Positions 5,507-60,367 are shown, counted from the stretch's first letter. The stretch: DNA of 64,000 nucleotides from Candidatus Woesearchaeota archaeon (GCA_019322435.1 JAHWIR010000005.1:199-64198), one strand, 5' to 3'. Translations and numbers: made by a program. Notes: generated by a model not told the origin, from the letters alone.

Positions 5507-7344
5507 CAGTAAAAGATTTTATAGAGGAAAGTGAATTTATGGAATGCATCTTGTCCTTGGGAGAGAAAGAGGAATTGAAGAGAAGAGGCTATGAAATCCT
5601 GCATAAGCTAAATGAAGGGCAGACAAGAGAGGCTTATCTTGCAAAATATGTGAGTGGTAATGTCAGTAAATTAAGAGTTGTGAAGGTACCTAAGAAAGAG
5701 GTTGATCCTTCATCTATATGTACTTTGATAAATAAAAGCAAAAGAGATGTTGATTTAGCAGAAGTAATTGCTTCTGGAGAAATCCAGCATCCTTATATTG
5801 CAGAGATTTTGGACAGCTTTAATTTAAATGGAAGAACTGTTAATGTAGAGGCGTATCATGAAGGTACTGATTTAGAGGCTCTTGTTAAAAGCGCAGGCCC
5901 TATTAAAGATGAATCAAGATTTGACAAAATATTTACTCAAGCAATTGAGGCATTTGAATATCTTAATGAAGAAAAGAGAATCCTGCATAGAGATATAAAA
6001 CCTTCAAATATTATTATTACAAAATCAGGAGATATTAAGGTAACTGATTTACAAAATGCTGCAAAGATTTTTGGTATAGATAAACTAAGCATGCCAACTA
6101 GAGGAGGAACTCCTTATACACATATTGACTTGCTTAATGCTCTTATTACTGGTAGAGAAACAAGAGCTAGCACAAGAACAGAAGTATATGCTCTTGGTGC
6201 AGCAATGTTCAATGTTCTTACAGGAGAGGATCCTTTTGGATATAAGATTGTAGCAGATGAAAATGGAAAAGAGATAAAGATTGGAAAAGAGATTTATAGA
6301 ATTAAGCTTAAAGATGGAGATAAGGATTTAGAAGAAATAACAAATGAGTATCATGAAGAAAAACTTAAGAAAATAATTAAGAAAGTGCCAAAAAAATACA
6401 AAGATGTAATCTATAGATGTTTAACAACTAATGATAAAAAAGCAATCAAGGATATGTATAGATTAAAACAAGAGTTTAGCGAGATTGTTCTTGATTACAA
6501 AGGAAGATTCAAAGAATCTCTTATTAGAGGAGCAAAAATAGCGCTGCCTACTGCTGTTGTTCTTGGTTTAACTATATTTGGAATTATAGGCGGTATAAGA
6601 GAATCAAAAAGGGAACATAAACCAACCCTGCAGGAGATAATGCAGCATAAGGATTACAGCAAATTTAGTTTAGAAACTCTGGATGATCAATCTAGGAAAT
6701 ATAGCCTTGATATACTTGTCCCTTATATGAAAGATGTTCAAGAAAGATTACCTGGATTTAGCGAAAAATTACAAAGCAGAATTGAATTTTATAGTTCACA
6801 TGCAGGAAAGATTAATCTTATGCCTGTGAGACTTACTAGTTCATGGCTAAGAGCATGTTATCTTAATAAAGGATATGATGAAGTATATAAACAGAAAGGA
6901 GAAAAGAGATGTTCTCCAAGCCTTGTTCCACTAAACTTTGTTTTAAAAACAGACTTAGCTAGTAGACAATGGCATGTTGATGATAATGAAGCAATTGCTA
7001 GAGGCCTAACATATCTTAAGCACTGTTTAGGCCCTGATGCAAATGTAGCAGATGTTTATACAAACTATTTCTCTACAAGAGAAGATGTAAATACTGCTAT
7101 GGTTAAAACAAAAAGCATAACATATCTTCCAAGATTTGTACCTGAAGAAAATAATCCTAATATTGGCAGCATAGAGCCAGGATATGGGCAGGCCATACCT
7201 TATCATCAAAGACAATTGATTAACACAGCAATATCACTGTATATGATTACAGATGAAGAGGGTAAAGTAGATTTTAGCAAGATTCCAAAATTAAGTTTTA
7301 TAGAAGGAACATTCAAAAATCAGCTTAATTCTGCTGTAAAGTAA
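5503..7344 (+). CDS. membrane-spanning Hanks-type Ser/Thr protein kinase with unknown C-terminal domain
   Basis: Catalytic loop HRDIKPSNIII, beta3 Lys LRVVKVPKK and VTDLQ in the DFG position. One TM helix (IALPTAVVLGLTIFGIIGGI), then about 245 aa of unknown domain. Confidence 0.85.
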   Translation: MTVKDFIEESEFMECILSLGEKEELKRRGYEILHKLNEGQTREAYLAKYVSGNVSKLRVVKVPKKEVDPSSICTLINKSKRDVDLAEVIASGEIQHPYIAEILDSFNLNGRTVNVEAYHEGTDLEALVKSAGPIKDESRFDKIFTQAIEAFEYLNEEKRILHRDIKPSNIIITKSGDIKVTDLQNAAKIFGIDKLSMPTRGGTPYTHIDLLNALITGRETRASTRTEVYALGAAMFNVLTGEDPFGYKIVADENGKEIKIGKEIYRIKLKDGDKDLEEITNEYHEEKLKKIIKKVPKKYKDVIYRCLTTNDKKAIKDMYRLKQEFSEIVLDYKGRFKESLIRGAKIALPTAVVLGLTIFGIIGGIRESKREHKPTLQEIMQHKDYSKFSLETLDDQSRKYSLDILVPYMKDVQERLPGFSEKLQSRIEFYSSHAGKINLMPVRLTSSWLRACYLNKGYDEVYKQKGEKRCSPSLVPLNFVLKTDLASRQWHVDDNEAIARGLTYLKHCLGPDANVADVYTNYFSTREDVNTAMVKTKSITYLPRFVPEENNPNIGSIEPGYGQAIPYHQRQLINTAISLYMITDEEGKVDFSKIPKLSFIEGTFKNQLNSAVK

Positions 7345-8227
7345 TTCCCATTAATGGTGAAGAAGCTAAATAGAAATTTCTTATTGCATTCATGATATGA
7401 TGCAGTATGATAGTATTTTTGCCTTTCTTTAGCAAAGGATATGCTTTATTGTAAATTATATCTTTTTCCATGTCATGAATTTTTTCTATTAATGTTATAT
7501 CTTTCTTAAGATAAGCTTGTTTTAAAGATTCAAACATTGTTTTGCATTCTTCAAAGAATTGCAGTACTTCTTTAGGTTCTTTGATTTTAGACAGATGTTT
7601 TAAGCCTAAGTAGACCTCTCTTTGTCCGTGTATTGTTAATGTTAAGAATGCCCAGAATAATTGAGCGTTTTTTTCTGCTATTTGTTTCTTTGCAATAACT
7701 CTTCTGCAGAAATTATCATACTGCTGTATCTTTTCTTCTATTTCTTCAAAATCTTCAATTGGCTCTTCTTTATTTATTACCTGCTCTGCAATAGTTAGTA
7801 ATTCTGATATGTTGTATAATATCTTTTGAAGCAATATGTTAAACTGTTCTGCAGATGGTTCTGTTATGTTCTCTATTTTGCATGAGTTTTTTTCTTTTTT
7901 TATTATTTCAAAACCTAAGAGACGGGTATTTACAATATCTTTTATAACCTTGAATTGGGTTTGGTGTTCAAAGAAAACATCAACTTTATCATAACCTAAC
8001 CTGTAAGCATTTGTTAATGCTGTTCTTATTGCTGACTCTGTAAATCCTGTTAGTTTGATTTCTGTCCTTTTTTTTGCTTTAATTCCTTTTGCTGAAATCA
8101 AAAGATTGTTCTCTATCTGTTCTATATTAACTTCATCCCCTTTCTTGAATTCAAATTCCTTTACCCACTTAGCAGGCAGACTAATCATCATAGTTGCTGC
8201 TCCTTGTTTTACTAGTTTTCTTTTCAT
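7325..8227 (-). CDS. AbrB-domain / PhoU-domain regulator (archaeal PhoU-like)
   Basis: Start re-set to the ATG at 8227 (the track start is TTG). MKRKLVKQGAATMMISLPAKWVKEFEFKKGDEV is an AbrB-like N-terminus followed by helical PhoU-like repeats. TATA ggtttatatat lies 25-35 nt upstream. Confidence 0.75.
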   Translation of the reverse strand: MKRKLVKQGAATMMISLPAKWVKEFEFKKGDEVNIEQIENNLLISAKGIKAKKRTEIKLTGFTESAIRTALTNAYRLGYDKVDVFFEHQTQFKVIKDIVNTRLLGFEIIKKEKNSCKIENITEPSAEQFNILLQKILYNISELLTIAEQVINKEEPIEDFEEIEEKIQQYDNFCRRVIAKKQIAEKNAQLFWAFLTLTIHGQREVYLGLKHLSKIKEPKEVLQFFEECKTMFESLKQAYLKKDITLIEKIHDMEKDIIYNKAYPLLKKGKNTIILHHIMNAIRNFYLASSPLMGITLQQN

Positions 8228-8381
8228 CTTGATTTTGGGAAATTTAAGCAATATATAAACCTTATGGATTTGTTTATAGATTTATACTAGTATATATACT
8301 TTAAACTGAATGTTTATATTTTAAGATTTTTATGAATTTACTAAAGAGCGTGTTCTAGATAAGTTATTGGAGGATAAAAAA

Positions 8382-52043: not shown

Positions 52044-52552
52044 TTTAACACCTCATAGTTGAGTATTTTTTTCAAAACTTTTTTGTCTGGAACTAAGGAT
52101 TCTAGTTCACCTCCTGGAATGTTCTTTCCTCCTGAGTCCAGATACAGTTTCCATTCTCTTATTGAAACTGGGTCTGTTGGATTGACAAAATAATTAAGGT
52201 CAAACCAGATTGACAACTCCTGTCCATGCTCATTGCAAGTTGCAATCTTGCACTGCAAAGGCTTTACTTCATGGATTGTGCAGCCTTTTTTTGCATTGAA
52301 AAACATGCATGTTCCATATGGCTTGCCTTTTTTGATTGTTAATGGTCTGTATAATGTTGTGTTGAATTTCTTTACTGGCTCTAATGCTGTTTTCTTCAAT
52401 CCTTCTTCTGTTAATTTTAATTTTCTTGCAATGGATGTTATGTCTGCTTTTGTCAGGAAGCCTGAGCCGTAGGTGCAGCATTTGCCGCATCTATTGCAGC
52501 TATTGCCCATCCGTATTGTTTCTGCAATCGTAGTTGCTTTTTTGATCTTCAT
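52040..52552 (-). CDS. YkgJ-family (UPF0153) Cys-cluster protein
   Basis: CNRCGKCCTYG ... CMFFNAKKGCTIHEVKPLQCK. The start is uncertain (alternative M15 at 52510). Confidence 0.7.
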   Translation of the reverse strand: MKIKKATTIAETIRMGNSCNRCGKCCTYGSGFLTKADITSIARKLKLTEEGLKKTALEPVKKFNTTLYRPLTIKKGKPYGTCMFFNAKKGCTIHEVKPLQCKIATCNEHGQELSIWFDLNYFVNPTDPVSIREWKLYLDSGGKNIPGGELESLVPDKKVLKKILNYEVLK

Positions 52553-52678
52553 GTTGTTTTATTGGATATTGTTTTGGTCTTGCTCCTGGTATTACTCTGG
52601 TTTGATTCATCAATCTTGCTTCTAATTCTCTTTGCTGCTCATGCCATTGAGCTCTGATTCCTGCTGGTTTTTCTCCTC

Positions 52679-53089
52679 TCATTTTTTGCTCACCTTTACC
52701 TTTGTTGGTCTTATAACATTGTCTTTGAACTTGTATCCTGCCTGCAATTCTTCAATCACAGTGCCTTCTTCTTTGTCTGAAGCTTCCTGCATCAATGCTT
52801 CATGCAGAAAAGGGTCGAATTTTTGGTCTAAGGCCTTGATTTTCTCTAATCCTTTTGATTCCAGCACCTGCCAGAGCTGATCATACAGTGCTTTGATGTC
52901 TTTATTGCCCAATGCTCTCTCAAATGAATCTAAAACAGGCAGTAATTCTTTGATTATTTCCTGAGAAGAATATTCTATGAAATCTTTTTTCTCTTTTTCA
53001 GCTCTTTTTTGATAGTTTTCAAAATCAGCCTGGACCTTTTTTAGCAGAGCTGTGATTTCTTTAGAGTCTTGTTTCTTTGGTTTTTTCAT
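52679..53089 (-). CDS. grpE: nucleotide exchange factor GrpE (short form)
   Basis: DFENYQKRAEKE, LLPVLDSFERAL, FDPFLHEAL and VIRPTKVKV. Confidence 0.9.
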   Translation of the reverse strand: MKKPKKQDSKEITALLKKVQADFENYQKRAEKEKKDFIEYSSQEIIKELLPVLDSFERALGNKDIKALYDQLWQVLESKGLEKIKALDQKFDPFLHEALMQEASDKEEGTVIEELQAGYKFKDNVIRPTKVKVSKK

Positions 53090-53105
53090 TTTTCCTAAAC
53101 ACCCC

Positions 53106-53137
53106 TGTTGATTTTAGGTCAACTATGTTGATTTTAG
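53106..53137. promoter_or_regulatory. putative operator: two copies of TGTTGATTTTAG 20 nt apart, the first inside the palindrome GTTGA-N7-TCAAC
   Basis: 53106-53117 and 53126-53137 are identical 12-mers. They lie between the TATA (about 53147-53160, minus strand) and the grpE ATG, in the divergent region shared with the wHTH gene. Confidence 0.5.
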
Positions 53138-53211
53138 ATAAACAACTAGTATATAAATATTATGGTAATCCATGCAATAAATTTATATATCACAAAGTTA
53201 TTTTATGAAAT

Positions 53212-53616
53212 ATGCTAGGGGAAAAGAGGGTTACTATAGTCAAACTTAGCAAACCAGATGACAAGGATCTGAACAAGAACTTGCAATGGTTTGGTAACTC
53301 ATTAGGGTTGTTTAGTATAAGAGATAAAGATAGAAGCTGCTTTCGAATCTTTATTGAGCTTGTTAAGGCAACAAAAACACAAAATCCCCTGACTTCTGAT
53401 GAGATTGCATCAAGATTAGAGCTGAGCAGAGGCACTGTGGTGCATCATGTGAATAAAATGATGGGTTCTGGGATTGTTGTAAGAGAAGGAAGCAGGTATT
53501 TGATGAGAGTTGGTTCCTTGACAACACTGATTGAGGAATTACACAAGGATGTTTCTAAGACCTGCAAAGAATTAAGAGATGCTGCGCAGGAGATTGATGC
53601 TTGTTTGGGGCTTTAA
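53212..53616 (+). CDS. winged-helix transcriptional regulator, divergent from grpE
   Basis: LTSDEIASRLELSRGTVVHHVNKMMGSGIVVREGSRY is an HTH plus wing. 134 aa. Confidence 0.7.
   Translation: MLGEKRVTIVKLSKPDDKDLNKNLQWFGNSLGLFSIRDKDRSCFRIFIELVKATKTQNPLTSDEIASRLELSRGTVVHHVNKMMGSGIVVREGSRYLMRVGSLTTLIEELHKDVSKTCKELRDAAQEIDACLGL
53595..53616 (+). repeat. 22-bp direct repeat, copy A (last codons plus stop of the wHTH gene)
   Basis: tgatgcttgtttggggctttaa, 22/22 identical to 58025-58046. Confidence 0.9.
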
Positions 53617-53705
53617 GCTATTAAATCAACTATTCTCTTATATAGAGAGGTCTATTCAATTTTGAAACCAACAATTTTATAAATGCACGAGAACTACACA
53701 TTAAT

Positions 53706-53885
53706 ATGGATATCATATTGGGTTTAGTGATTATAGATCTTGTACTTATTGTTCTATATTCAACACTATCCTTTTTCTCAGAGAAATTAAAGATTAAAAA
53801 AGAATTAATCTTACCTTTAATCCATATAATTGAAATTGTAACAGCAGGATTAGTAGGATATATTGCTGGGAAAGGCGGTATATGA
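53706..53885 (+). CDS. small two-helix membrane protein (59 aa, below the ORF-track cutoff)
   Basis: MDIILGLVIIDLVLIVLYSTLSFF...IIEIVTAGLVGYIAGKGGI. TATA ttttataaatg lies about 25 nt upstream. ATGA overlap with the next ORF. Confidence 0.5.
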   Translation: MDIILGLVIIDLVLIVLYSTLSFFSEKLKIKKELILPLIHIIEIVTAGLVGYIAGKGGI

Positions 53886-54076
53886 TGGCAAGATCAAATA
53901 TTGATGATGCAATTAAATTTGGAGGAGTGCTTATTGCTTTACTTGTAAGTGTCCTTGCAATATCTACTGTAACAATCAATTTAGATGCTGCTCCTCAGAT
54001 TTTAGAATTTTTAATTGTTTTAATGGTAATCCTAAGTATAATTACTGCAATTGGTAATTTTCTCAAGAAAATTTAA
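53882..54076 (+). CDS. small two-helix membrane protein
   Basis: 64 aa, GGVLIALLVSVLAISTV and ILEFLIVLMVILSIITAIG. Confidence 0.5.
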   Translation: MMARSNIDDAIKFGGVLIALLVSVLAISTVTINLDAAPQILEFLIVLMVILSIITAIGNFLKKI

Positions 54077-54107
54077 TTGTTGATTCCAAAATTTCTCCGT
54101 CCACTTA

Positions 54108-54767
54108 TCATAGCCTAATTGCTCTAGCATTTTGATTTAATGTTCGTGCTAAAGTAATCTTTAATCTTTTCTTAATCTTATCAAGTTCTTTTCTCATTCT
54201 TCGAGTTTTTACTGCGTCTTTATCAAGTTCCTTAACCATTTGATGTTGTCTTCTCTTCATTGATTTTATAAGTCTATTGATCCTTCTGATATTCATCTTT
54301 TTAGGATCTTTGTCATCTAAATCCAGATGACAATCATGACAAATCCAAAACAAATTAGCTCTATGGAACTTAAATGCAGAATACTTTCTATGGATTCCTC
54401 TGAAATTATGTTTTTCTATAATATGGGCTTCTTCTAAGTGTTTAGGTTTTCTACAAGCTTCACAAGTCTTTCCCCTTACCTTTTTAATCATTTCTGTATT
54501 TGGTTTTTTACTTGCTTCTGGGTTTACGACCAGTAGACTTTTTCTATACTTGACAAATAATTTTTCTAGCTTAGAAATAAAAGGTACTTTGATATTAAAT
54601 CTGTCCCTTACAAATTTGATGTCGTGCCTTATCCTCAAATAATCTTTTTCTACTCTATCATAAGCGTCATCTTCTCTATCAAGTTTATTTAGAATTTTTT
54701 TGTTAAAATTATCCTTTAGTCTGGAATCTGAAAAATGTTTTGCTTGTGGAAATGTCATATTAAACAC
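54108..54767 (-). CDS. HNH endonuclease-like protein with basic C-terminal tail
   Basis: CEAC...LEEAHII...RANLFWICHDCH, i.e. CxxC / His / Asn / CxxCH. SD agaggtg. Confidence 0.7.
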   Translation of the reverse strand: MFNMTFPQAKHFSDSRLKDNFNKKILNKLDREDDAYDRVEKDYLRIRHDIKFVRDRFNIKVPFISKLEKLFVKYRKSLLVVNPEASKKPNTEMIKKVRGKTCEACRKPKHLEEAHIIEKHNFRGIHRKYSAFKFHRANLFWICHDCHLDLDDKDPKKMNIRRINRLIKSMKRRQHQMVKELDKDAVKTRRMRKELDKIKKRLKITLARTLNQNARAIRL

Positions 54768-54811
54768 CTCTTTTTACATCATTATTCAGAACAAATATAA
54801 AAATTTATCTC

Positions 54812-54836
54812 AAACCTTCGTGAATATTAAAGAAAA
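54812..54836 (-). promoter_or_regulatory. terminator/promoter module, 25-nt exact repeat copy 1
   Basis: aaaccttcgtgaatattaaagaaaa on the plus strand. The minus strand reads TTTTCTTTAATATTCACGAAGGTTT. Lies between the 391-aa gene stop and the HNH gene. Confidence 0.55.
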
Positions 54837-54844
54837 TCATTTAA

Positions 54845-56020
54845 TTACTCAACATCATAATTTCTTAACATCTCTTGTTCTCTTAGAAGTTTTTCAGCAA
54901 GCACCTGATATCTTTGATTTGCGAATGGTGCATCAGGAGGTCCTCTTACATGAGGACTTACCCAAGTAGTCATACGAAGAGTACCATCCTTGTTTTTATA
55001 TTCTCTATTGTGCCCTCTTACATAAATCCTCTCTGTAAGTTCCCATGCCTTATCTTTCCTAGGTTCATATTCTTGAACAACATTATCTTTTACTACAACC
55101 AGATGAAAGGGCTTCTTCTTTCTTTTTTCACCGCTAGCCTCTCTTCGTTTTATAGGGCCTTCCCTAGGAACAACAGTGGTATTATGTGAATTGATGTAAT
55201 TTATTAAATTGATACATAAACTAGGAATTTGATAGAAAAAATCTGGATCAGAAAGATTCTCAGGAGATACTTTATTCTTAGTCCTCTTGAGGCCTGATTT
55301 TGTACTAAACCAACCTTTTTTAGAATGTATATCTATTTCAAAGGATAGGTCTTTGTAATTTGGGTCAATATATTTCTGCCTGTTTACCTTTCTTAACATT
55401 CTTTTCATATTTTTAACACAACGTTTATGAGATCTAAGTCTATTTGATGAATCTAGTAGATAACCTCCAAATACTCTTTGCTCTTTTTCTGGTTCAATTT
55501 CAATAGCTGCTGTAACCAAGTCATCTAGATTATTAGAGTAATGAACATTTATTCCATAATGCCATAACCCTTCTCTATCTTCTCCACCTTCAAGATATAT
55601 CCCGCACATATTCTTAACATTATCACTTAAAGGAAGGGCCATTGGAATAGGTTCAGCTAATTCGAAAAATATTGGATTAAATGGCAATTGGCCTCTCCAA
55701 ACATACCCGTAAGAAGCGGGCTGGGTATTGACTAAACTATCTATAGTAGCAGGCCCAATTAAAAAAGGTTTAGCCTCTAATAGCAAGTCTAATATGCTTT
55801 TATATTCCTCACAATATCCCCTTGATTCTTCAATAACTGTACTGGACCAAAAATCCAATCTAGAATCAGATATACCTAAATCAGTAGGAAGCTTCTTACA
55901 AACTTCTTCTGTCTCCCTATTAACACGGATAGTTTCTTTATAAAAATTGATTAACCTATCATAAAACCAGGATTCGGATGTTATTTTGTTTTTTGATTTA
56001 TTTTTTTTCTTTTTACTCAT
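54845..56020 (-). CDS. hypothetical protein (391 aa orphan)
   Basis: Lys-rich N-terminus, internal basic patches (RREASGEKRKKK) and C-terminal RIYVRGHNREYKNKDGTLRMTTWVSPHVRG. No family recognised. Confidence 0.6.
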   Translation of the reverse strand: MSKKKKNKSKNKITSESWFYDRLINFYKETIRVNRETEEVCKKLPTDLGISDSRLDFWSSTVIEESRGYCEEYKSILDLLLEAKPFLIGPATIDSLVNTQPASYGYVWRGQLPFNPIFFELAEPIPMALPLSDNVKNMCGIYLEGGEDREGLWHYGINVHYSNNLDDLVTAAIEIEPEKEQRVFGGYLLDSSNRLRSHKRCVKNMKRMLRKVNRQKYIDPNYKDLSFEIDIHSKKGWFSTKSGLKRTKNKVSPENLSDPDFFYQIPSLCINLINYINSHNTTVVPREGPIKRREASGEKRKKKPFHLVVVKDNVVQEYEPRKDKAWELTERIYVRGHNREYKNKDGTLRMTTWVSPHVRGPPDAPFANQRYQVLAEKLLREQEMLRNYDVE

Positions 56021-56094
56021 AATAAATCTTCCATAAATCTCTCAGAAAATATCTGAGGCTACAACACCTCTTTAGATAGTCATAAAGTTACTGA

Positions 56095-56125
56095 TTTTAT
56101 AAACCTTCGTGAATATTAAAGAAAA
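56095..56125 (-). promoter_or_regulatory. terminator/promoter module, 25-nt exact repeat copy 2 plus TATA
   Basis: The minus strand reads TTTTCTTTAATATTCACGAAGGTTTATAAAA. Positions 56101-56125 are identical to 54812-54836. About 75 nt upstream of the ATG at 56020. Confidence 0.55.
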
Positions 56126-56140
56126 AACTAAGGATTGATT

Positions 56141-56539
56141 TTATTTTACCCTAGTAAGTTTGAATGGTAAACTGTATGTACTTTTTCCAGGGGTTGCTTC
56201 AATATACCATTTTCCATTAAATTCATTAGGATTGTCATAATTTCTTTTTCCTTTTTCATAGACTATATTTCCTTTTACTCTAGAACCTGATTCTCTAGAA
56301 ATGTATTTTTTTGTAAAATTAATCTCATCATTTGTTAATGTTCCTTCAACTCTTGCTTTACCATGCTTATCTGTTGTTGTTCCTGTAAATGTTCCATCTG
56401 GTTTTAAACAAATTTCCATAGTAAATTTTCCAGAATCAGTCGTAGGATAGGTAATTCCTATAGGACTGCTACCTCCTCCCCCTTTCCACTTTCCCTCAAA
56501 TTTCAAAATTTTTCCTTCAAGAGTTTCTTGTTCAGTCAT
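56141..56539 (-). CDS. hypothetical beta-rich protein
   Basis: 132 aa with a G-rich loop GKWKGGGGSSP and a repeated F.G.W / G.F.G pattern. Confidence 0.55.
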   Translation of the reverse strand: MTEQETLEGKILKFEGKWKGGGGSSPIGITYPTTDSGKFTMEICLKPDGTFTGTTTDKHGKARVEGTLTNDEINFTKKYISRESGSRVKGNIVYEKGKRNYDNPNEFNGKWYIEATPGKSTYSLPFKLTRVK

Positions 56540-56595
56540 ATCTATGTAAATATTATTTAAATGTATAAATATTTTTTCTAAATTAAAGAAAAAAA

Positions 56596-57042
56596 CTAAT
56601 CATAGCCAAAGAAAGTGGCGTCTTTTTTAGGACACCTTCCATCCTCTAATGGTATATCCAATAGAAATTCCCTTATCTTCTCAAAGTCTTTACTAGATTT
56701 TGCATAATAAGTTACTAAAACAGTTAAATCAATTTTTGTAAATTGCATTTTTTCTTTTAATTTATTTAATTCTGAATCTAAATACTCCATCTTAGCCTTT
56801 ATTTCCTGAGGAGGTATACGCACTTCAGATTTATCTCTAACTTCTACTTCATATCTTTTTTTATCTAAAAGTGCACCAAGAACCATAGAAGCTCCGTCAG
56901 CAACATTTGCATGAACATAATATTCATTAGAAAAAACTCCCATTCTAAAACAATACTCTACTTTCTTTGATTCTGGATCAATCTGTGCAAATTGAGGATC
57001 AATTTTCTCATCAGCATGCAGTCTTTCTATTAGGTCTTTCAT
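56596..57042 (-). CDS. hypothetical protein
   Basis: 148 aa with a 4-nt overlap to the upstream gene. Confidence 0.55.
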   Translation of the reverse strand: MKDLIERLHADEKIDPQFAQIDPESKKVEYCFRMGVFSNEYYVHANVADGASMVLGALLDKKRYEVEVRDKSEVRIPPQEIKAKMEYLDSELNKLKEKMQFTKIDLTVLVTYYAKSSKDFEKIREFLLDIPLEDGRCPKKDATFFGYD

Positions 57043-57434
57043 TTTTGCACCACCTTTTCTCTATAGTTTTCAATAAGCCTGCTTGTTTCAGGAGTTTTCT
57101 CTATACTAAAATCTTCTGCACCCCAAGGAGGATCACTCCAAAGAATATTATCTGATGAATAGTCTTTTAGTGCCATTTGCATAGTAATACTCATTATTGC
57201 GTGTATGAAAAATGATTTAAGATCTCCAGATAATTTAATATCTTGTTTTTCAGAGTCTGCTACAATAATATCTACTAGATTTTTTTTGCCTTTATGTTGG
57301 TCTAATCTTGTATCTATTGGGTCTGTTTTATACTCAAATTGAAAATAGAATTCAACATCATCTATTTTTACATCTCCATAATAATGTCTCAAATCTCTTT
57401 GAAAGACTGATGACCTTCCTTTATGATATTCCAT
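57039..57434 (-). CDS. hypothetical protein
   Basis: 131 aa, SD gggggat. Confidence 0.55.
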   Translation of the reverse strand: MEYHKGRSSVFQRDLRHYYGDVKIDDVEFYFQFEYKTDPIDTRLDQHKGKKNLVDIIVADSEKQDIKLSGDLKSFFIHAIMSITMQMALKDYSSDNILWSDPPWGAEDFSIEKTPETSRLIENYREKVVQK

Positions 57435-57471
57435 TTAGTTGTATCCCCCCAATTAGAAAAAGTGAATCTTC

Positions 57472-57511
57472 TGGTTTTTAAAAAGTTTGTGATGCTTGCT
57501 TAGGGCTTTGA
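57472..57511 (-). repeat. intergenic module copy (promoter-like AAACTTTTTAAAAACCA plus a degenerate copy of the 22-bp repeat)
   Basis: tggtttttaaaaagtttgtg is identical to 58004-58023. 57490-57511 matches the 22-mer at 19/22 positions. Confidence 0.8.
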
Positions 57512-57985
57512 TTTGTATTTAATAGAAAAAAAGATATCTTCTAACTTTCTTGCATATTTCGGATTATTCATGCATGCGAATGCATACTCATCGCCTTTTT
57601 GAACTCTGTATGCTTTGGAATCTATTACAGCAAAACTTAAACCTAGATGGCGGGGAACTGTATAAGAAGGAGACATATTATACTCCTTAAGCAAAGATAT
57701 AAACTCTGTATCTTCTTCCTGTTTAAGCAAAACATCTATTGAAACACCTCTTGCTACAGCAGATTTTACTGAATCCAGAATCAAAGGAGAATCCAGCAAT
57801 TCTGAATTCTCATGCTCATTAAAAATTATCATATTATCAACTGCATGTCTGAAAAGAGTTTGATACAATGCTAGAATGTTCTCTGGTTTGATATTACTAA
57901 AAACACGGCCAGAACTAAGTGATATAAGTCTGTTTACTCCCTCTTTGTATATAGGATCTATTTTCAAATACTCTTGTAAGTTCAT
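57500..57985 (-). CDS. hypothetical protein (weak resemblance to a PLD-like fold lacking HKD)
   Basis: 161 aa. NMIIFNEH...LDSVKSAVARGVSIDVLL...SFAVIDSKAYRV resembles the PLD layout by eye, but the His of HxK is absent. Confidence 0.5.
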   Translation of the reverse strand: MNLQEYLKIDPIYKEGVNRLISLSSGRVFSNIKPENILALYQTLFRHAVDNMIIFNEHENSELLDSPLILDSVKSAVARGVSIDVLLKQEEDTEFISLLKEYNMSPSYTVPRHLGLSFAVIDSKAYRVQKGDEYAFACMNNPKYARKLEDIFFSIKYKSKP

Positions 57986-58003
57986 AATATTATTAGAGAA
58001 GCT

Positions 58004-58046
58004 TGGTTTTTAAAAAGTTTGTGCTGATGCTTGTTTGGGGCTTTAA
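58004..58046 (-). repeat. intergenic module copy plus 22-bp direct repeat copy B
   Basis: 58025-58046 (tgatgcttgtttggggctttaa) is 22/22 identical to 53595-53616 and contains the stop codon of the 290-aa minus-strand gene. Confidence 0.9.
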
Positions 58047-58915
58047 TTATCTTCAACTAGAACTTTTTTTTCATTGATTAAAAAACCACCTTCGTCATTT
58101 GATCTAAGAAATTCTTTTTTTTCTAAAGAAACTAATTTATAAAATATATCTTGTTCTGCTAAATCATCAGATTGGCATGGGCAAACGCATCCATCCTCTG
58201 CTAAATCATCGATAATATTATACGGATAAATATAATCGTCTGCATCACAAGGATCATAAGATTCCATTACTGAAAGAATACGCCATGTTAATAAATCAGC
58301 GTTTGCTAAAGCTTCTAATCCACTTAACCTCTCTTTTAAATCTGAATTGATTCCTTCTATTAATTCTTTTTCATAATTTTCATGCCATTCGTCTACTATC
58401 TTCCCATCATCTTTAAACTCCTTTGGTGTTGGAGCATCAGGTGTTGCAACATATTCTAATATTAATTCTTCTGCTCCAGGAAAAATATCCCTAACTTTGG
58501 TGCGTTTGGATATTTTCTTGTTATTAAAAAATACAAGTCTTTTGTTTCCGATATTTGATACGTTGCGATAGCTAAATCTCTGATAATCTTCAGATGAGCC
58601 AGCCCTAACAAAAAAATCAAAATCTCCAATAGCTATTGATTCTATATCTGCATCTAATTCATCACTATCTGGATAAAGAAGATTTATTCTTTCTGTTGTT
58701 TCTAACGGAGGATTATGATCACTTGAATCATCAACTGTCATCCTTCCAATCAGTCTTCTAAGATAAGGCGCTAATGGTCTTCCAGGATTAACCTTTATTT
58801 CTGGAATCCCTAATTCAGAATGACCTCCTAAAAGAGTATAATGCTGGAAACCATCAGAACATTCATAAAAAGGACCATAAAGATCACTTCCCCCAACCCT
58901 AACTAATTCAGCCAT
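58043..58915 (-). CDS. hypothetical acidic protein
   Basis: 290 aa with a C-terminal Cys cluster (DGCVCPCQSDD). Promoter-like aaactttttaaaatc upstream. Confidence 0.6.
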   Translation of the reverse strand: MAELVRVGGSDLYGPFYECSDGFQHYTLLGGHSELGIPEIKVNPGRPLAPYLRRLIGRMTVDDSSDHNPPLETTERINLLYPDSDELDADIESIAIGDFDFFVRAGSSEDYQRFSYRNVSNIGNKRLVFFNNKKISKRTKVRDIFPGAEELILEYVATPDAPTPKEFKDDGKIVDEWHENYEKELIEGINSDLKERLSGLEALANADLLTWRILSVMESYDPCDADDYIYPYNIIDDLAEDGCVCPCQSDDLAEQDIFYKLVSLEKKEFLRSNDEGGFLINEKKVLVEDN

Positions 58916-59009
58916 AGTAATCCAAAAATAATTAGATTTTAAAAAGTTTATTAATTCTTAATATAAAAATATTTAAAGAATAAATTGTTTCTTTAGGTGG
59001 GTGGATAAA

Positions 59010-59456
59010 ATGGCAGTGAATATTGATGAGTTGGTTAAGGAGATTGTAGATAAGAAGACAATTGGATTAAGCGATGTGATGGATTATGTTACAGATGAAC
59101 AAATAGAAGCTGTTAAGAAGTATCAATGTCCTTTTTGTGAAACAAAGCTGGAAAAAGGCAAGGGAACATTGCATAGTGATCTTGGAAGGGGATTTCAGGG
59201 AGCACAACAGGGTTATTATGAATGCGGAGATAAGGAATGCAGATATGCAATAAAGTTCATATGGGTTGATGGAAAAAGTTATTTTCTGCCAGATTCAATT
59301 AGGACACCAGGCTTAGCAGGAGGAAATCCTGCTGATTTTATCAAAACAATTAACTTCAATATTGAAGAAGGGAATACAACAAAAGACAAATTAATAAAGC
59401 AGGCAATTGCAGAGTACTTAACACATAAAATTGATAACCATATTCTTTCATCATAG
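59010..59456 (+). CDS. hypothetical Zn-ribbon-containing protein
   Basis: Start re-set from a GTG (inside SD aggtgggtgg) to the ATG. CPFC...CGDKEC. Confidence 0.55.
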   Translation: MAVNIDELVKEIVDKKTIGLSDVMDYVTDEQIEAVKKYQCPFCETKLEKGKGTLHSDLGRGFQGAQQGYYECGDKECRYAIKFIWVDGKSYFLPDSIRTPGLAGGNPADFIKTINFNIEEGNTTKDKLIKQAIAEYLTHKIDNHILSS

Positions 59457-59491: not shown

Positions 59492-60367
59492 ATGGTTGAA
59501 CATATCGGCGGGCAGGCTATTATTGAAGGAGTTATGATGAGATCTCCTACAAAGATGGCTATTTCTGTCAGGCTGCCTAATAAGAAGATTAAGACAAAGA
59601 AGGAGAAGTGCAAGAAACTGAAGATTGCAAAGTTTGCTTTTATCAGAGGAGGGTTTGTTCTGATTGATACATTGGTTAAAGGGGTTAAGGCATTGCTGTG
59701 GAGTGCTGACCAGCAGCTGGAAAAACATGAGAAGATAACTAAAAAAGATGTGTTCTGGACATTGGGGCTGACAATTGCTCTTGTTGTTGGGTTTTTTATT
59801 GTGCTGCCTTATGCTGTTACGCACTGGATTGGGATTGAGGAGGAAGTGAATCCAATTTTGTTTAATCTTGTTGATGGAATCATAAAGATTGCATTGTTTC
59901 TGGGTTATCTGGGAGTTATCTCTATGTGGAAAGAGGTCAGAAGGGTTTTTGAATATCATGGAGCAGAGCACAAGGCTGTTAATTGTTTTGAAGCAGGAAA
60001 ATCATTAACAGTTGCAAATGTAAAGAAATATGGAAAAGAGCATGCAAGATGCGGAACAAGTTTTTTGATTATTGTCTTGATAATCAGTGTCTTGTTGTTT
60101 TCACTGCTGCCTGTTATTGTAAGTGCATTAGGTATTGGTTTGAGTTTTTGGCTGCAGAGGATTTTATTATTAGGATTAAGGATATTGATCATCCCTGTTA
60201 TTGCAGCTATTTCATATGAGGTTTTAAGGTTTGGTGATAAATTCAAGAGATTTAAATTAATCTCATGGATCACTCTGCCTGGGATGTGGGTGCAGAAGAT
60301 CACAACAAAAGAGCCTGACTCAAAACAAATAGAAGTTGCTATTGAGGCTTTAAAAAGCGTGACATAA
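59492..60367 (+). CDS. DUF1385 (YqhQ-like) membrane protein
   Basis: IGGQAIIEGVMMRSP, YHGAEHKAVN and several TM helices. TATA gtttatatac lies about 25 nt upstream. Confidence 0.75.
   Translation: MVEHIGGQAIIEGVMMRSPTKMAISVRLPNKKIKTKKEKCKKLKIAKFAFIRGGFVLIDTLVKGVKALLWSADQQLEKHEKITKKDVFWTLGLTIALVVGFFIVLPYAVTHWIGIEEEVNPILFNLVDGIIKIALFLGYLGVISMWKEVRRVFEYHGAEHKAVNCFEAGKSLTVANVKKYGKEHARCGTSFLIIVLIISVLLFSLLPVIVSALGIGLSFWLQRILLLGLRILIIPVIAAISYEVLRFGDKFKRFKLISWITLPGMWVQKITTKEPDSKQIEVAIEALKSVT

What the first reader, a model, noticed from the sequence alone, without database searches (positions are those of the whole stretch)
53595..58046. 4.4-kb island of orphan genes bounded by a perfect 22-bp direct repeat starting at the 3' end of a wHTH gene
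Seen: tgatgcttgtttggggctttaa occurs at 53595-53616, where it encodes the last residues DACLGL plus the stop of the wHTH gene. It recurs 22/22 at 58025-58046, where it contains the stop of the convergent 290-aa gene. Removing 53617-58046 would leave the wHTH gene and the 290-aa gene as convergent neighbours with overlapping stops. That arrangement is seen elsewhere in this window (gyrB/receiver, lysK/24002). The intervening segment encodes two ATGA-coupled small membrane proteins, an HNH nuclease, a 391-aa basic orphan and four more orphans. Most of these are separate transcription units, each with its own T-tract plus BRE/TATA module. Known: integrative elements duplicate their target or att site, often rebuilding the 3' end of the target gene. 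HNH nucleases are common cargo of viruses and mobile or defence islands. Inference: an integrated element, provirus remnant or defence island. No integrase or transposase is recognisable, so either the mobility function is novel or lost, or the 391-aa protein supplies it.
Basis: partly seen in the sequence, partly recalled or inferred. Interest (0 to 1): 0.75.

Follow-up and report, generated by a model that had tools for sequence, protein, structure and literature searches.

The report
Gene cassettes inserted behind archaeal regulator gene
A 4.4-kb block of foreign orphan genes sits in a Woesearchaeota (DPANN archaeon) genome exactly at the stop codon of a conserved regulator gene, flanked by copies of that gene's last 22 bases, and related species carry other small integrase-less cassettes (mostly toxin-antitoxin pairs) at the same spot.

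Summary
The 22-mer occurs perfectly at 53595-53616 (the end of the wHTH gene) and at 58025-58046, against 0 expected by chance.

There is also a third copy at 57490-57511. Its three mismatches are all synonymous in the wHTH frame (P≈0.011). It shares 20 further bases on its left with the right-hand copy. The island is therefore best read as two tandem units: A (53617-57489, seven ORFs) and B (57512-58024, one ORFan).

Relatives show the empty site, with wHTH followed within 48 nt by DUF1385. None of them carries any island gene. The island is the most compositionally deviant 4.4 kb of the window.

Four other species among 85 Woesearchaeota loci also duplicate their own wHTH tail (37-60 nt, ending at the stop) around small inserts: VapBC, HicAB, HEPN-MNT and an LMW-phosphatase-like gene. 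One VapBC cassette is 91-96% identical between two species whose flanks are only 60-85% identical, so cassettes move between species.

No integrase was found in the island, among the ten window ORFs of integrase-like size that were scanned, or in about 30 proteins at occupied sites.

Best reading: integrase-less cassettes inserted by reciprocal recombination within the wHTH tail, at a phylum-wide hotspot. The enzyme is unknown. A provirus or defence island is not shown.

The parts
53212..53616 (+). Target gene: a conserved 134-aa winged-helix regulator next to grpE
   Evidence: Pfam HTH_20/MarR_2/HTH_5. 674 homologues, named Woesearchaeota where named. Syntenic with dnaJ-dnaK-grpE in relatives.
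53595..53616 (+). Left copy of the 22-bp repeat (attL-like). It forms the functional end of wHTH (DACLGL plus stop).
53617..57489 (.). Unit A: a 3.9-kb insert with seven ORFs and no relatives at this site in other genomes
   Evidence: Composition.
53706..54076 (+). Two ATGA-coupled small hydrophobic proteins (59 and 64 aa)
   Evidence: ORFs. Kyte-Doolittle 19-residue windows above 2.4. No family hits.
54108..54767 (-). Probable HNH endonuclease (219 aa; the start may be the ATG at 54755)
   Evidence: CEAC...EEAH...N...CHDCH motif in the sequence. Weak phrog_8048 HNH hit, E 8.8e-4. No Pfam, NCBIfam or PDB hit.
54845..56020 (-). 391-aa protein of a small DPANN family with a phage-like fold; function unknown
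   Evidence: 16 proteins in 5.8e9 sequences. phrog_15934 hit, E 6.6e-7. Full-length BFVD matches to uncharacterised phage proteins, E 3e-5. No PDB fold or Pfam match.
56141..57434 (-). Three orphan ORFs: 132 aa, then an ATGA-coupled pair of 148 and 131 aa
54812..54836 (-). 25-nt terminator-plus-promoter module. A second perfect copy lies at 56101-56125, so the two flank the 391-aa gene.
   Evidence: Its core motif AACCTTCGTGAAT also precedes four host genes in the window, with 6 copies against 0.05 expected. It is therefore a regulatory module, not a target duplication.
57472..57491 (-). 20-nt BRE/TATA-type promoter module of the 131-aa gene, abutting the middle repeat copy. An identical module lies at 58004-58023.
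57490..57511 (+). Middle copy of the repeat, TGATGCTTGCTTAGGGCTTTGA. Its three mismatches are all synonymous, so it still reads DACLGL plus stop.
   Evidence: P=0.011 that three substitutions are all silent.
57512..58024 (-). Unit B: a single 161-aa ORFan (57500-57985) with its own promoter (58004-58023)
   Evidence: Only a self-hit in 5.8e9 proteins. Weak DrmC/PLD-like hints only.
58025..58046 (+). Right copy of the 22-bp repeat (attR-like), overlapping the stop of the 290-aa gene
58043..58915 (-). 290-aa accessory gene outside the repeats but inside the variable region. It shares the AAACTTTTTAAAA promoter with the 131-aa and 161-aa genes.
   Evidence: Absent from relatives. 22 representatives only. 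AF2 pLDDT 90 with no overall PDB match and a C-terminal winged-helix-like part. Promoter.
59001..59456 (+). 151-aa clade-specific gene between the variable block and DUF1385
   Evidence: 44% homologue in the closest relative L002
59492..60367 (+). DUF1385 gene: the conserved right-hand neighbour of wHTH in relatives, marking the far edge of the hotspot

Best explanation
The island is a tandem array of two integrase-less gene cassettes, A (53617-57489) and B (57512-58024). Each was inserted by reciprocal, Campbell-type recombination between a circular DNA carrying a copy of the wHTH gene's last codons and the chromosomal wHTH tail.

Each insertion leaves the regulator gene intact and adds one more copy of the tail downstream. 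That gives three copies here:
- left, the functional gene end;
- middle, a foreign allele of the same seven codons;
- right, the displaced copy.

The wHTH stop codon is a recurrent insertion hotspot across Woesearchaeota.

**Shown:** the insertion, the repeats, the hotspot and cassette transfer between species.

**Inferred:** the circular intermediate and the recombination chemistry.

The enzyme is not encoded in the cassettes. I consider a recombinase supplied in trans (by the host or a helper element) slightly more likely than host homologous recombination on the 22-60 nt of tail homology.
For: 1. **The repeat is real.** 22/22 match, 0 expected.
2. **The third copy behaves as a coding allele.** It has only silent changes. 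The identical 20-nt left flank and the same -22 boundary in the middle and right copies are what two related units inserted at one site would leave.
3. **Empty site in relatives.** L005 has wHTH, then 48 nt, then DUF1385. L004 has 272 nt. The gap to the conserved neighbour is bimodal: 28 of 46 loci have at most 300 nt and 17 have more than 500 nt. The window's 5875 nt is the largest in its clade.
4. **The island genes are foreign.** They are absent from about 85 related loci. Composition is the most deviant in the window.
5. **Other species duplicate their own tail.** Four of the other 84 wHTH loci carry a same-strand downstream copy of their own wHTH tail that ends at the stop codon:
   - L052: 37 nt, around VapB plus PIN;
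   - L045: 38 nt, around HicA plus HicB;
   - L044: 50 nt, around HEPN plus MNT;
   - L016: 60 nt, around an LMWPc-like gene.

   This compares with about 2-4 of 1911 other gene tails (Fisher p about 1e-5).
6. **The displaced copies are alleles, not decay.** In L016 and L044 the copies differ from the resident tails mainly by silent or allele-like changes and keep both frame and stop. They are other alleles carried in, not in-situ decay.
7. **A cassette has moved between species.** The L052 VapBC cassette is 91-96% identical in nucleotides to that of L038. The flanks are 70-85% identical on the left and 60-70% on the right. The edges are sharp at the wHTH stop and at the tail copy.
8. **No integrase found.** There is none in the island, none among ten window ORFs of integrase size, and none in about 30 proteins from occupied sites.
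Against: - No circular junction, empty-site read or recombinase has been seen. The only other assembly with this wHTH allele shows the same left junction.
- L038 carries the VapBC cassette without a second tail copy. Either the copy can be lost or insertion does not always duplicate the tail.
- Repeat lengths vary (22-60 nt) and the cassette ends share no motif, which is unusual for a single site-specific recombinase.
- 22 nt is short for efficient homologous recombination.
- The wHTH tail shows no excess synonymous-site conservation across 83 genes. No phylum-wide fixed DNA site exists.
- Only 5 of 17 occupied sites retain a detectable duplicate.
Confidence: 0.62

Rival explanations
1. This is a decayed self-integrating element (provirus or plasmid). 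It once encoded its own tyrosine integrase, integrated at an att site in the wHTH tail, and later lost the integrase by deletion.
For: The att-like direct repeats, the tandem arrangement and the compositional deviation fit classical archaeal integrated elements. Those elements often target 3'-distal parts of protein genes and form arrays (PMC6563490, read). An HNH gene and a phage-like 391-aa protein are present.
Against: - The island is fully coding, with no room for an integrase pseudogene.
- None of about 30 proteins at 17 occupied sites in other species is an integrase.
- Inserts in relatives are neat one- or two-gene modules, not random remnants.
- There are no viral hallmark genes and no relatives in IMG/VR or GenBank phages.
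Confidence: 0.15
2. The tail copies are pseudogene stumps left by homology-facilitated illegitimate recombination. Incoming DNA from a relative (wHTH plus its downstream genes) was anchored in the conserved dnaK-grpE-wHTH region. It joined illegitimately inside the resident wHTH, leaving the resident's last 22-60 nt downstream.
For: This explains the variable stump lengths, the end of similarity exactly at the stop codon, the allele-like differences in L016 and L044 and the absence of any recombinase. Similar tail stumps occur behind two unrelated genes, in L047 and L090.
Against: - Two independent illegitimate joins at the same -22 position with the same 20-nt left flank in the window are not expected.
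- The L052/L038 cassette has a sharp left edge at the stop codon, and wHTH itself is only 73-87% identical. The incoming DNA therefore did not include wHTH.
- The L052 and window copies are identical to the resident allele.
- There is strong enrichment at wHTH.
Confidence: 0.12
3. The island mobilises itself with a novel enzyme that it encodes: either the 391-aa protein acting as an unrecognised recombinase, or the HNH nuclease driving homing-like spread.
For: Both are the only sizeable nucleic-acid-related candidates. The 391-aa family has invariant R-G-H-x-R and N-Y-I-N motifs and an unmatched fold in the PDB.
Against: - The 391-aa homologues in L006, L009, L010 and L013 have no flanking direct repeats and lie at unrelated sites.
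- Cassettes at the wHTH site in other species contain neither protein.
- Unit B has neither protein.
- Homing by a nuclease does not create tail duplications.
Confidence: 0.06
4. The repeat is not an insertion scar. It could be a regulatory operator reused upstream of island promoters, a chance match, or a metagenome assembly artefact.
For: The middle and right copies both sit directly upstream of a promoter. The source is a metagenome-assembled contig.
Against: - 0 matches are expected by chance.
- The left copy is coding sequence whose peptide is conserved in relatives, and the changes in the middle copy are all silent.
- The same pattern recurs in four independent assemblies from other species.
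- A k=31 Logan contig confirms the left junction.
- The region has no hairpin or dyad symmetry.
Confidence: 0.03

Closest known systems
[quoted passage not shown] 2019, PMC6563490)
   Same: Direct repeats that duplicate the gene end. The gene is kept intact. An empty site is seen in relatives. Tandem re-use of the same site. Mostly orphan cargo.
   Different: Those elements were defined by, and carry, an integrase (or Cas1). Here neither the island nor any insert at the same site in about 17 other genomes encodes one. Many of these inserts are single one- or two-gene modules.
Xer-dependent modules: IMEX elements and the pdif/dif modules of Acinetobacter plasmids
   Same: Small integrase-less modules, often toxin-antitoxin pairs. 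They are bounded by repeated recombination sites, moved by a recombinase supplied by the host, and found in arrays.
   Different: dif-type sites are 28-bp imperfect palindromes. The wHTH tail has no dyad symmetry or hairpin, and it varies freely at synonymous sites between species.
Integron gene cassettes
   Same: An array of promoter-bearing or promoterless one-gene cassettes at one chromosomal site. Toxin-antitoxin cargo is common. Each cassette ends in a recombination-site copy.
   Different: No IntI-type integrase was found among the island ORFs and the ten window ORFs of integrase-like size that I scanned. The repeat does not fold as an attC-like hairpin. The site is the coding end of a gene.
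tRNA-flanked genomic islands and tycheposon-type arrays in marine cyanobacteria (from my own knowledge)
   Same: A hotspot at the 3' end of a conserved gene. Partial gene-end repeats inside the island. Cargo-only units lacking integrases sit next to mobile ones.
   Different: The target here is a protein gene in a DPANN archaeon. No integrase-bearing partner element has been found.
Family 1/2 casposons inserted in tandem at the 3' end of ef-2
   Same: Tandem insertions at the end of a conserved protein gene with duplicated target sequence (PMC6563490).
   Different: There is no Cas1 and no terminal inverted repeats. The duplication is 22-60 nt and allele-bearing, rather than a 14-15 bp target-site duplication.

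Membership tests
Site-specifically integrated mobile element (att-flanked iMGE) | Direct repeats at both ends that duplicate the target sequence | tested here: met
   22/22 repeat at 53595 and 58025, plus a diverged copy at 57490
Site-specifically integrated mobile element (att-flanked iMGE) | Empty site in related genomes | tested here: met
   L005 has wHTH, 48 nt, then DUF1385. 28 of 46 loci have a gap of at most 300 nt.
Site-specifically integrated mobile element (att-flanked iMGE) | Element-encoded integrase or recombinase | tested here: not met
   No integrase, transposase or Cas1 hit for any island ORF in Pfam, PHROGs, PADLOC or NCBIfam
Site-specifically integrated mobile element (att-flanked iMGE) | Excision: a circular junction or a restored attB in the population | not testable with these tools
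   No read data. The metagenome scan for the 22-mer gave only a chance hit.
Provirus | Virus hallmark genes (capsid, portal, terminase, replication) | tested here: not met
   PHROGs gave only a weak HNH hit and one unknown-function family. No IMG/VR or GenBank phage relatives.
Defence island | Known or candidate defence genes | tested here: not met
   PADLOC gave no hit better than E 0.0068 for island ORFs
Toxin-antitoxin cassette | Adjacent small toxin and antitoxin genes of known families | tested here: not met
   The window ORFs have no TA domains. The feature is met for inserts at the same site in L052, L044 and L045.
Casposon / DNA transposon | Terminal inverted repeats, a short fixed-length target duplication, and Cas1 or a transposase | tested here: not met
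   No inverted repeat joins the island ends. The duplication is 22-60 nt and variable. No Cas1 or transposase.
Integron | attC-like folded recombination sites and an adjacent IntI | tested here: not met
   The repeat regions fold no better than shuffles (z +0.9 to +2.0). No integrase among ten window ORFs of 270-340 aa.
Xer/dif-dependent module (IMEX, pdif module) | 28-bp dif-like imperfect palindrome conserved at module borders | tested here: not met
   The 22-mer has no dyad symmetry. Tails vary at synonymous sites as much as the rest of the gene does.

The most novel reading that the evidence does not exclude
Woesearchaeota have a previously undescribed cassette-exchange system. Small integrase-less modules (toxin-antitoxin pairs, orphan genes, multi-gene blocks such as this one) carry a copy of the last 7-20 codons of a conserved heat-shock-locus regulator gene. 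They use that homology to insert behind the gene's stop codon and to hop between species. The system would be functionally analogous to integrons or pdif modules, but guided by a coding gene tail rather than a dedicated structured site.
Probability: 0.3. Interest if true: 0.8.

Novelty: new variant of a known kind. Interest (0 to 1): 0.6.

Why it matters
DPANN archaea have tiny genomes and almost no described mobile elements, and how they acquire accessory genes is poorly understood.

This case shows one specific, conserved chromosomal address where foreign genes are repeatedly added across the phylum. It also gives direct evidence that a cassette moved between species, without any cassette-encoded recombinase.

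If the mechanism is homology-guided, or uses a trans-acting recombinase, it would be a new route of gene flow in uncultured archaea. It would also give a practical handle: searching behind wHTH could harvest their accessory, toxin-antitoxin and possibly anti-virus genes.

Tried and rejected
**Searches that led nowhere**
- A metagenome scan for the 22-mer, allowing the synonymous variants, gave only an unrelated microsatellite-rich contig, L014.
- Exact-protein look-ups found only a 1.4-kb Logan contig identical to the window for wHTH, and nothing for the 290-aa protein.
- Seven IMG/VR scans (391-aa family, HNH, 290, 161, 132, 148 and 131 aa) and a tblastn of the 391-aa protein against GenBank phages gave no relatives.
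- PDB sequence searches gave nothing meaningful.
- PDB fold searches of the 391-aa and 290-aa models gave no significant match.
- Literature searches gave no description of this hotspot.

**Ideas considered and rejected**
- I asked whether the 391-aa gene is a nested single-gene mobile element, because a perfect 25-nt repeat flanks it. Rejected on two grounds. Its homologues have no flanking repeats. The repeat is a terminator-plus-promoter module whose core also precedes four host genes.
- I looked for further hidden tail copies inside unit A. None scored above shuffled background.
- I looked for an integrase elsewhere in the window among ten ORFs of 270-340 aa. None was found.
- I looked for a copy of the wHTH tail upstream of the 290-aa promoter. 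None was found.
- I tested dif-like and attC-like readings of the repeat. It has no symmetry and no fold.

Full report
**1. Observation**

The 22-mer TGATGCTTGTTTGGGGCTTTAA occurs perfectly at 53595-53616 and 58025-58046. No match was seen in 100 dinucleotide-preserving shuffles.
- The first copy is the last seven codons (DACLGL plus stop) of a 134-aa winged-helix gene, 53212-53616 on the + strand.
- The second copy overlaps the stop of a convergent 290-aa ORF.

The same search revealed a third copy at 57490-57511 with three mismatches. In the wHTH reading frame these are TGT>TGC, TTG>TTA and TAA>TGA, so the copy still reads DACLGL plus stop. The probability that three substitutions are all silent is 0.011.

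The middle and right copies are each preceded by the identical 20-nt string TGGTTTTTAAAAAGTTTGTG. On the minus strand this string is the BRE/TATA-type promoter of the 131-aa and 161-aa genes. Its 13-nt core, AAACTTTTTAAAA, occurs only three times in the 64 kb. The third occurrence is the promoter of the 290-aa gene.

**2. Organism and synteny**

The wHTH protein has 674 homologues. Those that carry names are named Woesearchaeota (DPANN).

In relatives the gene lies downstream of dnaJ-dnaK-grpE. What follows it varies:
- L005 (76% identical wHTH): DUF1385, the homologue of window 59492-60367, follows after 48 nt.
- L004: one 66-aa gene intervenes.
- L003 (83% identical) and L002 (89% identical): other, unrelated small genes.

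None of the island ORFs, nor the 290-aa ORF, has a homologue in these loci or in 80 further Woesearchaeota species loci fetched with a wHTH profile.

I measured the gap from the wHTH stop to the conserved downstream neighbour, which is DUF1385 in one clade and a 493-aa protein in another. The distribution is bimodal. 28 of 46 loci have at most 300 nt and 17 have more than 500 nt. The window's 5875 nt is the largest in its clade.

The island is the most atypical 4.4-kb stretch of the window. Its tetranucleotide distance has z=5.1 and exceeds all 124 background windows. Its GC is 31.2% against 34.8%.

**3. The duplication recurs in other species**

I searched each locus for a second copy of its own wHTH tail. 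Four more cases emerged. All are on the same strand, downstream, and end at the stop codon:

| Locus | Copy length | Distance | Match quality |
|---|---|---|---|
| L052 | 37 nt | 703 nt | 33 nt perfect |
| L045 | 38 nt | 525 nt | degenerate |
| L044 | 50 nt | 1090 nt | 4 mismatches |
| L016 | 60 nt | 780 nt | 8 mismatches |

Pfam identifies the DNA between the copies:
- L052: VapB plus a PIN toxin.
- L045: HicA plus HicB.
- L044: HEPN plus a nucleotidyltransferase.
- L016: an LMW-phosphatase-like gene.

In L016 and L044 the second copy keeps both frame and stop. It differs by silent changes or by residues found in other lineages' wHTH, for example DNCLGL against DGCLGL. The copies are therefore other alleles, not in-situ decay.

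Among 1911 other gene tails in the same 1.2 Mb, only about two to four comparable cases exist, notably in L047 and L090. Enrichment at wHTH has Fisher p of about 1e-5.

**4. Direct evidence that cassettes move**

L038 and L052 have 87% identical wHTH proteins and carry the same VapBC module behind wHTH. A sliding identity profile between them shows three zones:
- grpE-wHTH: 70-85% nucleotide identity.
- The cassette: 91-96%.
- Downstream: 60-70%.

The steps are sharp. One falls at the wHTH stop and the other where L052 has its tail copy. L038 lacks that 36-nt copy. The cassette was therefore exchanged after the species diverged, as a discrete unit, into the same address.

**5. No recombinase found**

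- Island ORFs have no integrase, transposase or Cas1 hits in Pfam, PHROGs, PADLOC or NCBIfam.
- Ten window ORFs of integrase-like size are ordinary host genes or have no Pfam hit.
- About 30 proteins from occupied sites in other species include none.

The 391-aa protein belongs to a family of only 16 proteins. Its relatives sit at unrelated DPANN chromosomal sites without flanking repeats.

Its AlphaFold model has pLDDT 65 and matches no PDB fold. It aligns over its full length with uncharacterised tailed-phage proteins (E 3e-5), which is consistent with a phrog_15934 hit.

The perfect 25-nt repeat on either side of the 391-aa gene is a terminator-plus-promoter module. Its core also precedes four host genes, with 6 copies in the window against 0.05 expected. 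It is not an insertion scar.

**6. Mechanism**

The three-copy anatomy is what two successive Campbell-type insertions of related circular DNAs into the wHTH tail would leave. The features that fit are:
- the shared boundary and left flank of the middle and right copies;
- the allele-like displaced tails;
- the sharp cassette edges;
- the intact target gene.

This much is inference from anatomy. No circular or empty-site molecules were observable.

The catalyst is open. Features arguing for homology-guided recombination, or for co-evolving specificities, rather than one fixed-site recombinase:
- The tail has no dyad symmetry or fold.
- It shows no excess synonymous conservation across 83 genes.
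- Cassette ends share no motif.

Features arguing against ordinary homologous or illegitimate recombination:
- 22 nt is short for homologous recombination.
- The cassette edges are sharp.
- The window junctions are identical.

I therefore split the best explanation into two variants. A recombinase supplied in trans is slightly favoured. Host homologous recombination comes second. The rivals are a decayed self-integrating element, pseudogene stumps from homology-facilitated illegitimate recombination, a cassette-encoded novel enzyme, and artefact or operator readings.

**7. Comparison with known systems**

In kind this is an att-flanked insertion at the 3'-distal end of a protein gene. That is well documented in archaea, including tandem arrays (PMC6563490).

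It fails the integrase criterion for membership. It also fails the hallmark tests for provirus, defence island, casposon, integron and Xer/dif module.

Functionally it most resembles trans-mobilised module systems such as pdif modules, integron cassettes and cargo-only units at tRNA hotspots. Here, however, a coding gene tail serves as the address.

**8. Verdict**

Its provirus or defence-island label and its 391-aa integrase suggestion are not.

The added findings make this a new variant of a known kind, of moderate to good interest:
- the tandem structure;
- the phylum-wide hotspot;
- toxin-antitoxin cassettes at the same site;
- inter-species transfer;
- consistent absence of an integrase.

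Noticed in passing
window 24482, 32774, 33464, 39393, 54813, 56102 (+ strand coordinates; functional on the - strand): The motif AACCTTCGTGAAT (minus-strand view ATTCACGAAGGTTTTTAAA, BRE/TATA-like) occurs 6 times against 0.05 expected. At three of the four host sites an ATG lies 25-35 nt downstream on the minus strand; two of these coincide with listed ORF starts (33435, 39364). It looks like a specific promoter class shared by host genes and two island genes.
   Followed up: partly
L052 4131-4833 versus L038 10394-11260: The same VapBC cassette sits behind wHTH in two species at 91-96% nucleotide identity, while the flanks are 60-85% identical. L052 has a 36-nt wHTH-tail copy at the cassette's right end that L038 lacks.
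   Followed up: yes
L047 (minus strand; reverse-complement coordinates 17546 and 17908) and L090 (reverse-complement coordinates 14547 and 14987): Two unrelated genes (485 aa and 364 aa) also have their last 40-57 nt duplicated 360-440 nt downstream, with a single small ORF (83 or 112 aa) in between. Tail-duplicating insertions are therefore not strictly limited to wHTH.
   Followed up: partly
window 54845-56020; L006, L009, L010, L013: The 391-aa protein defines a family of only 16 proteins in 5.8 billion. They occur in contigs with archaeal/DPANN-like gene content (taxonomy not checked), in variable regions. In L010 the homologue lies next to GmrSD_N and HEPN genes, and in L006 downstream of a DUF7557 gene. 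Invariant NLINYIN and VRGHxR motifs are present. The fold matches uncharacterised phage proteins only.
   Followed up: partly
window 58043-58915: The 290-aa protein gives a confident AlphaFold model (pLDDT 90) with no significant PDB match overall. Its C-terminal part resembles winged-helix domains (MotA, Z-alpha, MarR). The family has only 22 representatives at 50% clustering.
   Followed up: partly
L045 1985-2589; L003 1444-2441: Further toxin-antitoxin-type pairs sit in the same hotspot without detectable tail copies: MazE-like plus PIN in L045, and a nucleotidyltransferase plus a 150-aa partner in L003.
   Followed up: partly
window 7325-8251 (-): A 308-aa ORF has an N-terminal MazE/AbrB-type antitoxin domain. 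It lies in the second-lowest-GC stretch of the window (about 4.4-10 kb), which may be another accessory region.
   Followed up: no
L001 (Logan SRR14699983 contig, 1435 nt): A separately assembled contig is 100% identical to window 52476-53910. It spans the left junction from wHTH into the 59-aa gene. It is the only other occurrence of this wHTH allele on record.
   Followed up: yes
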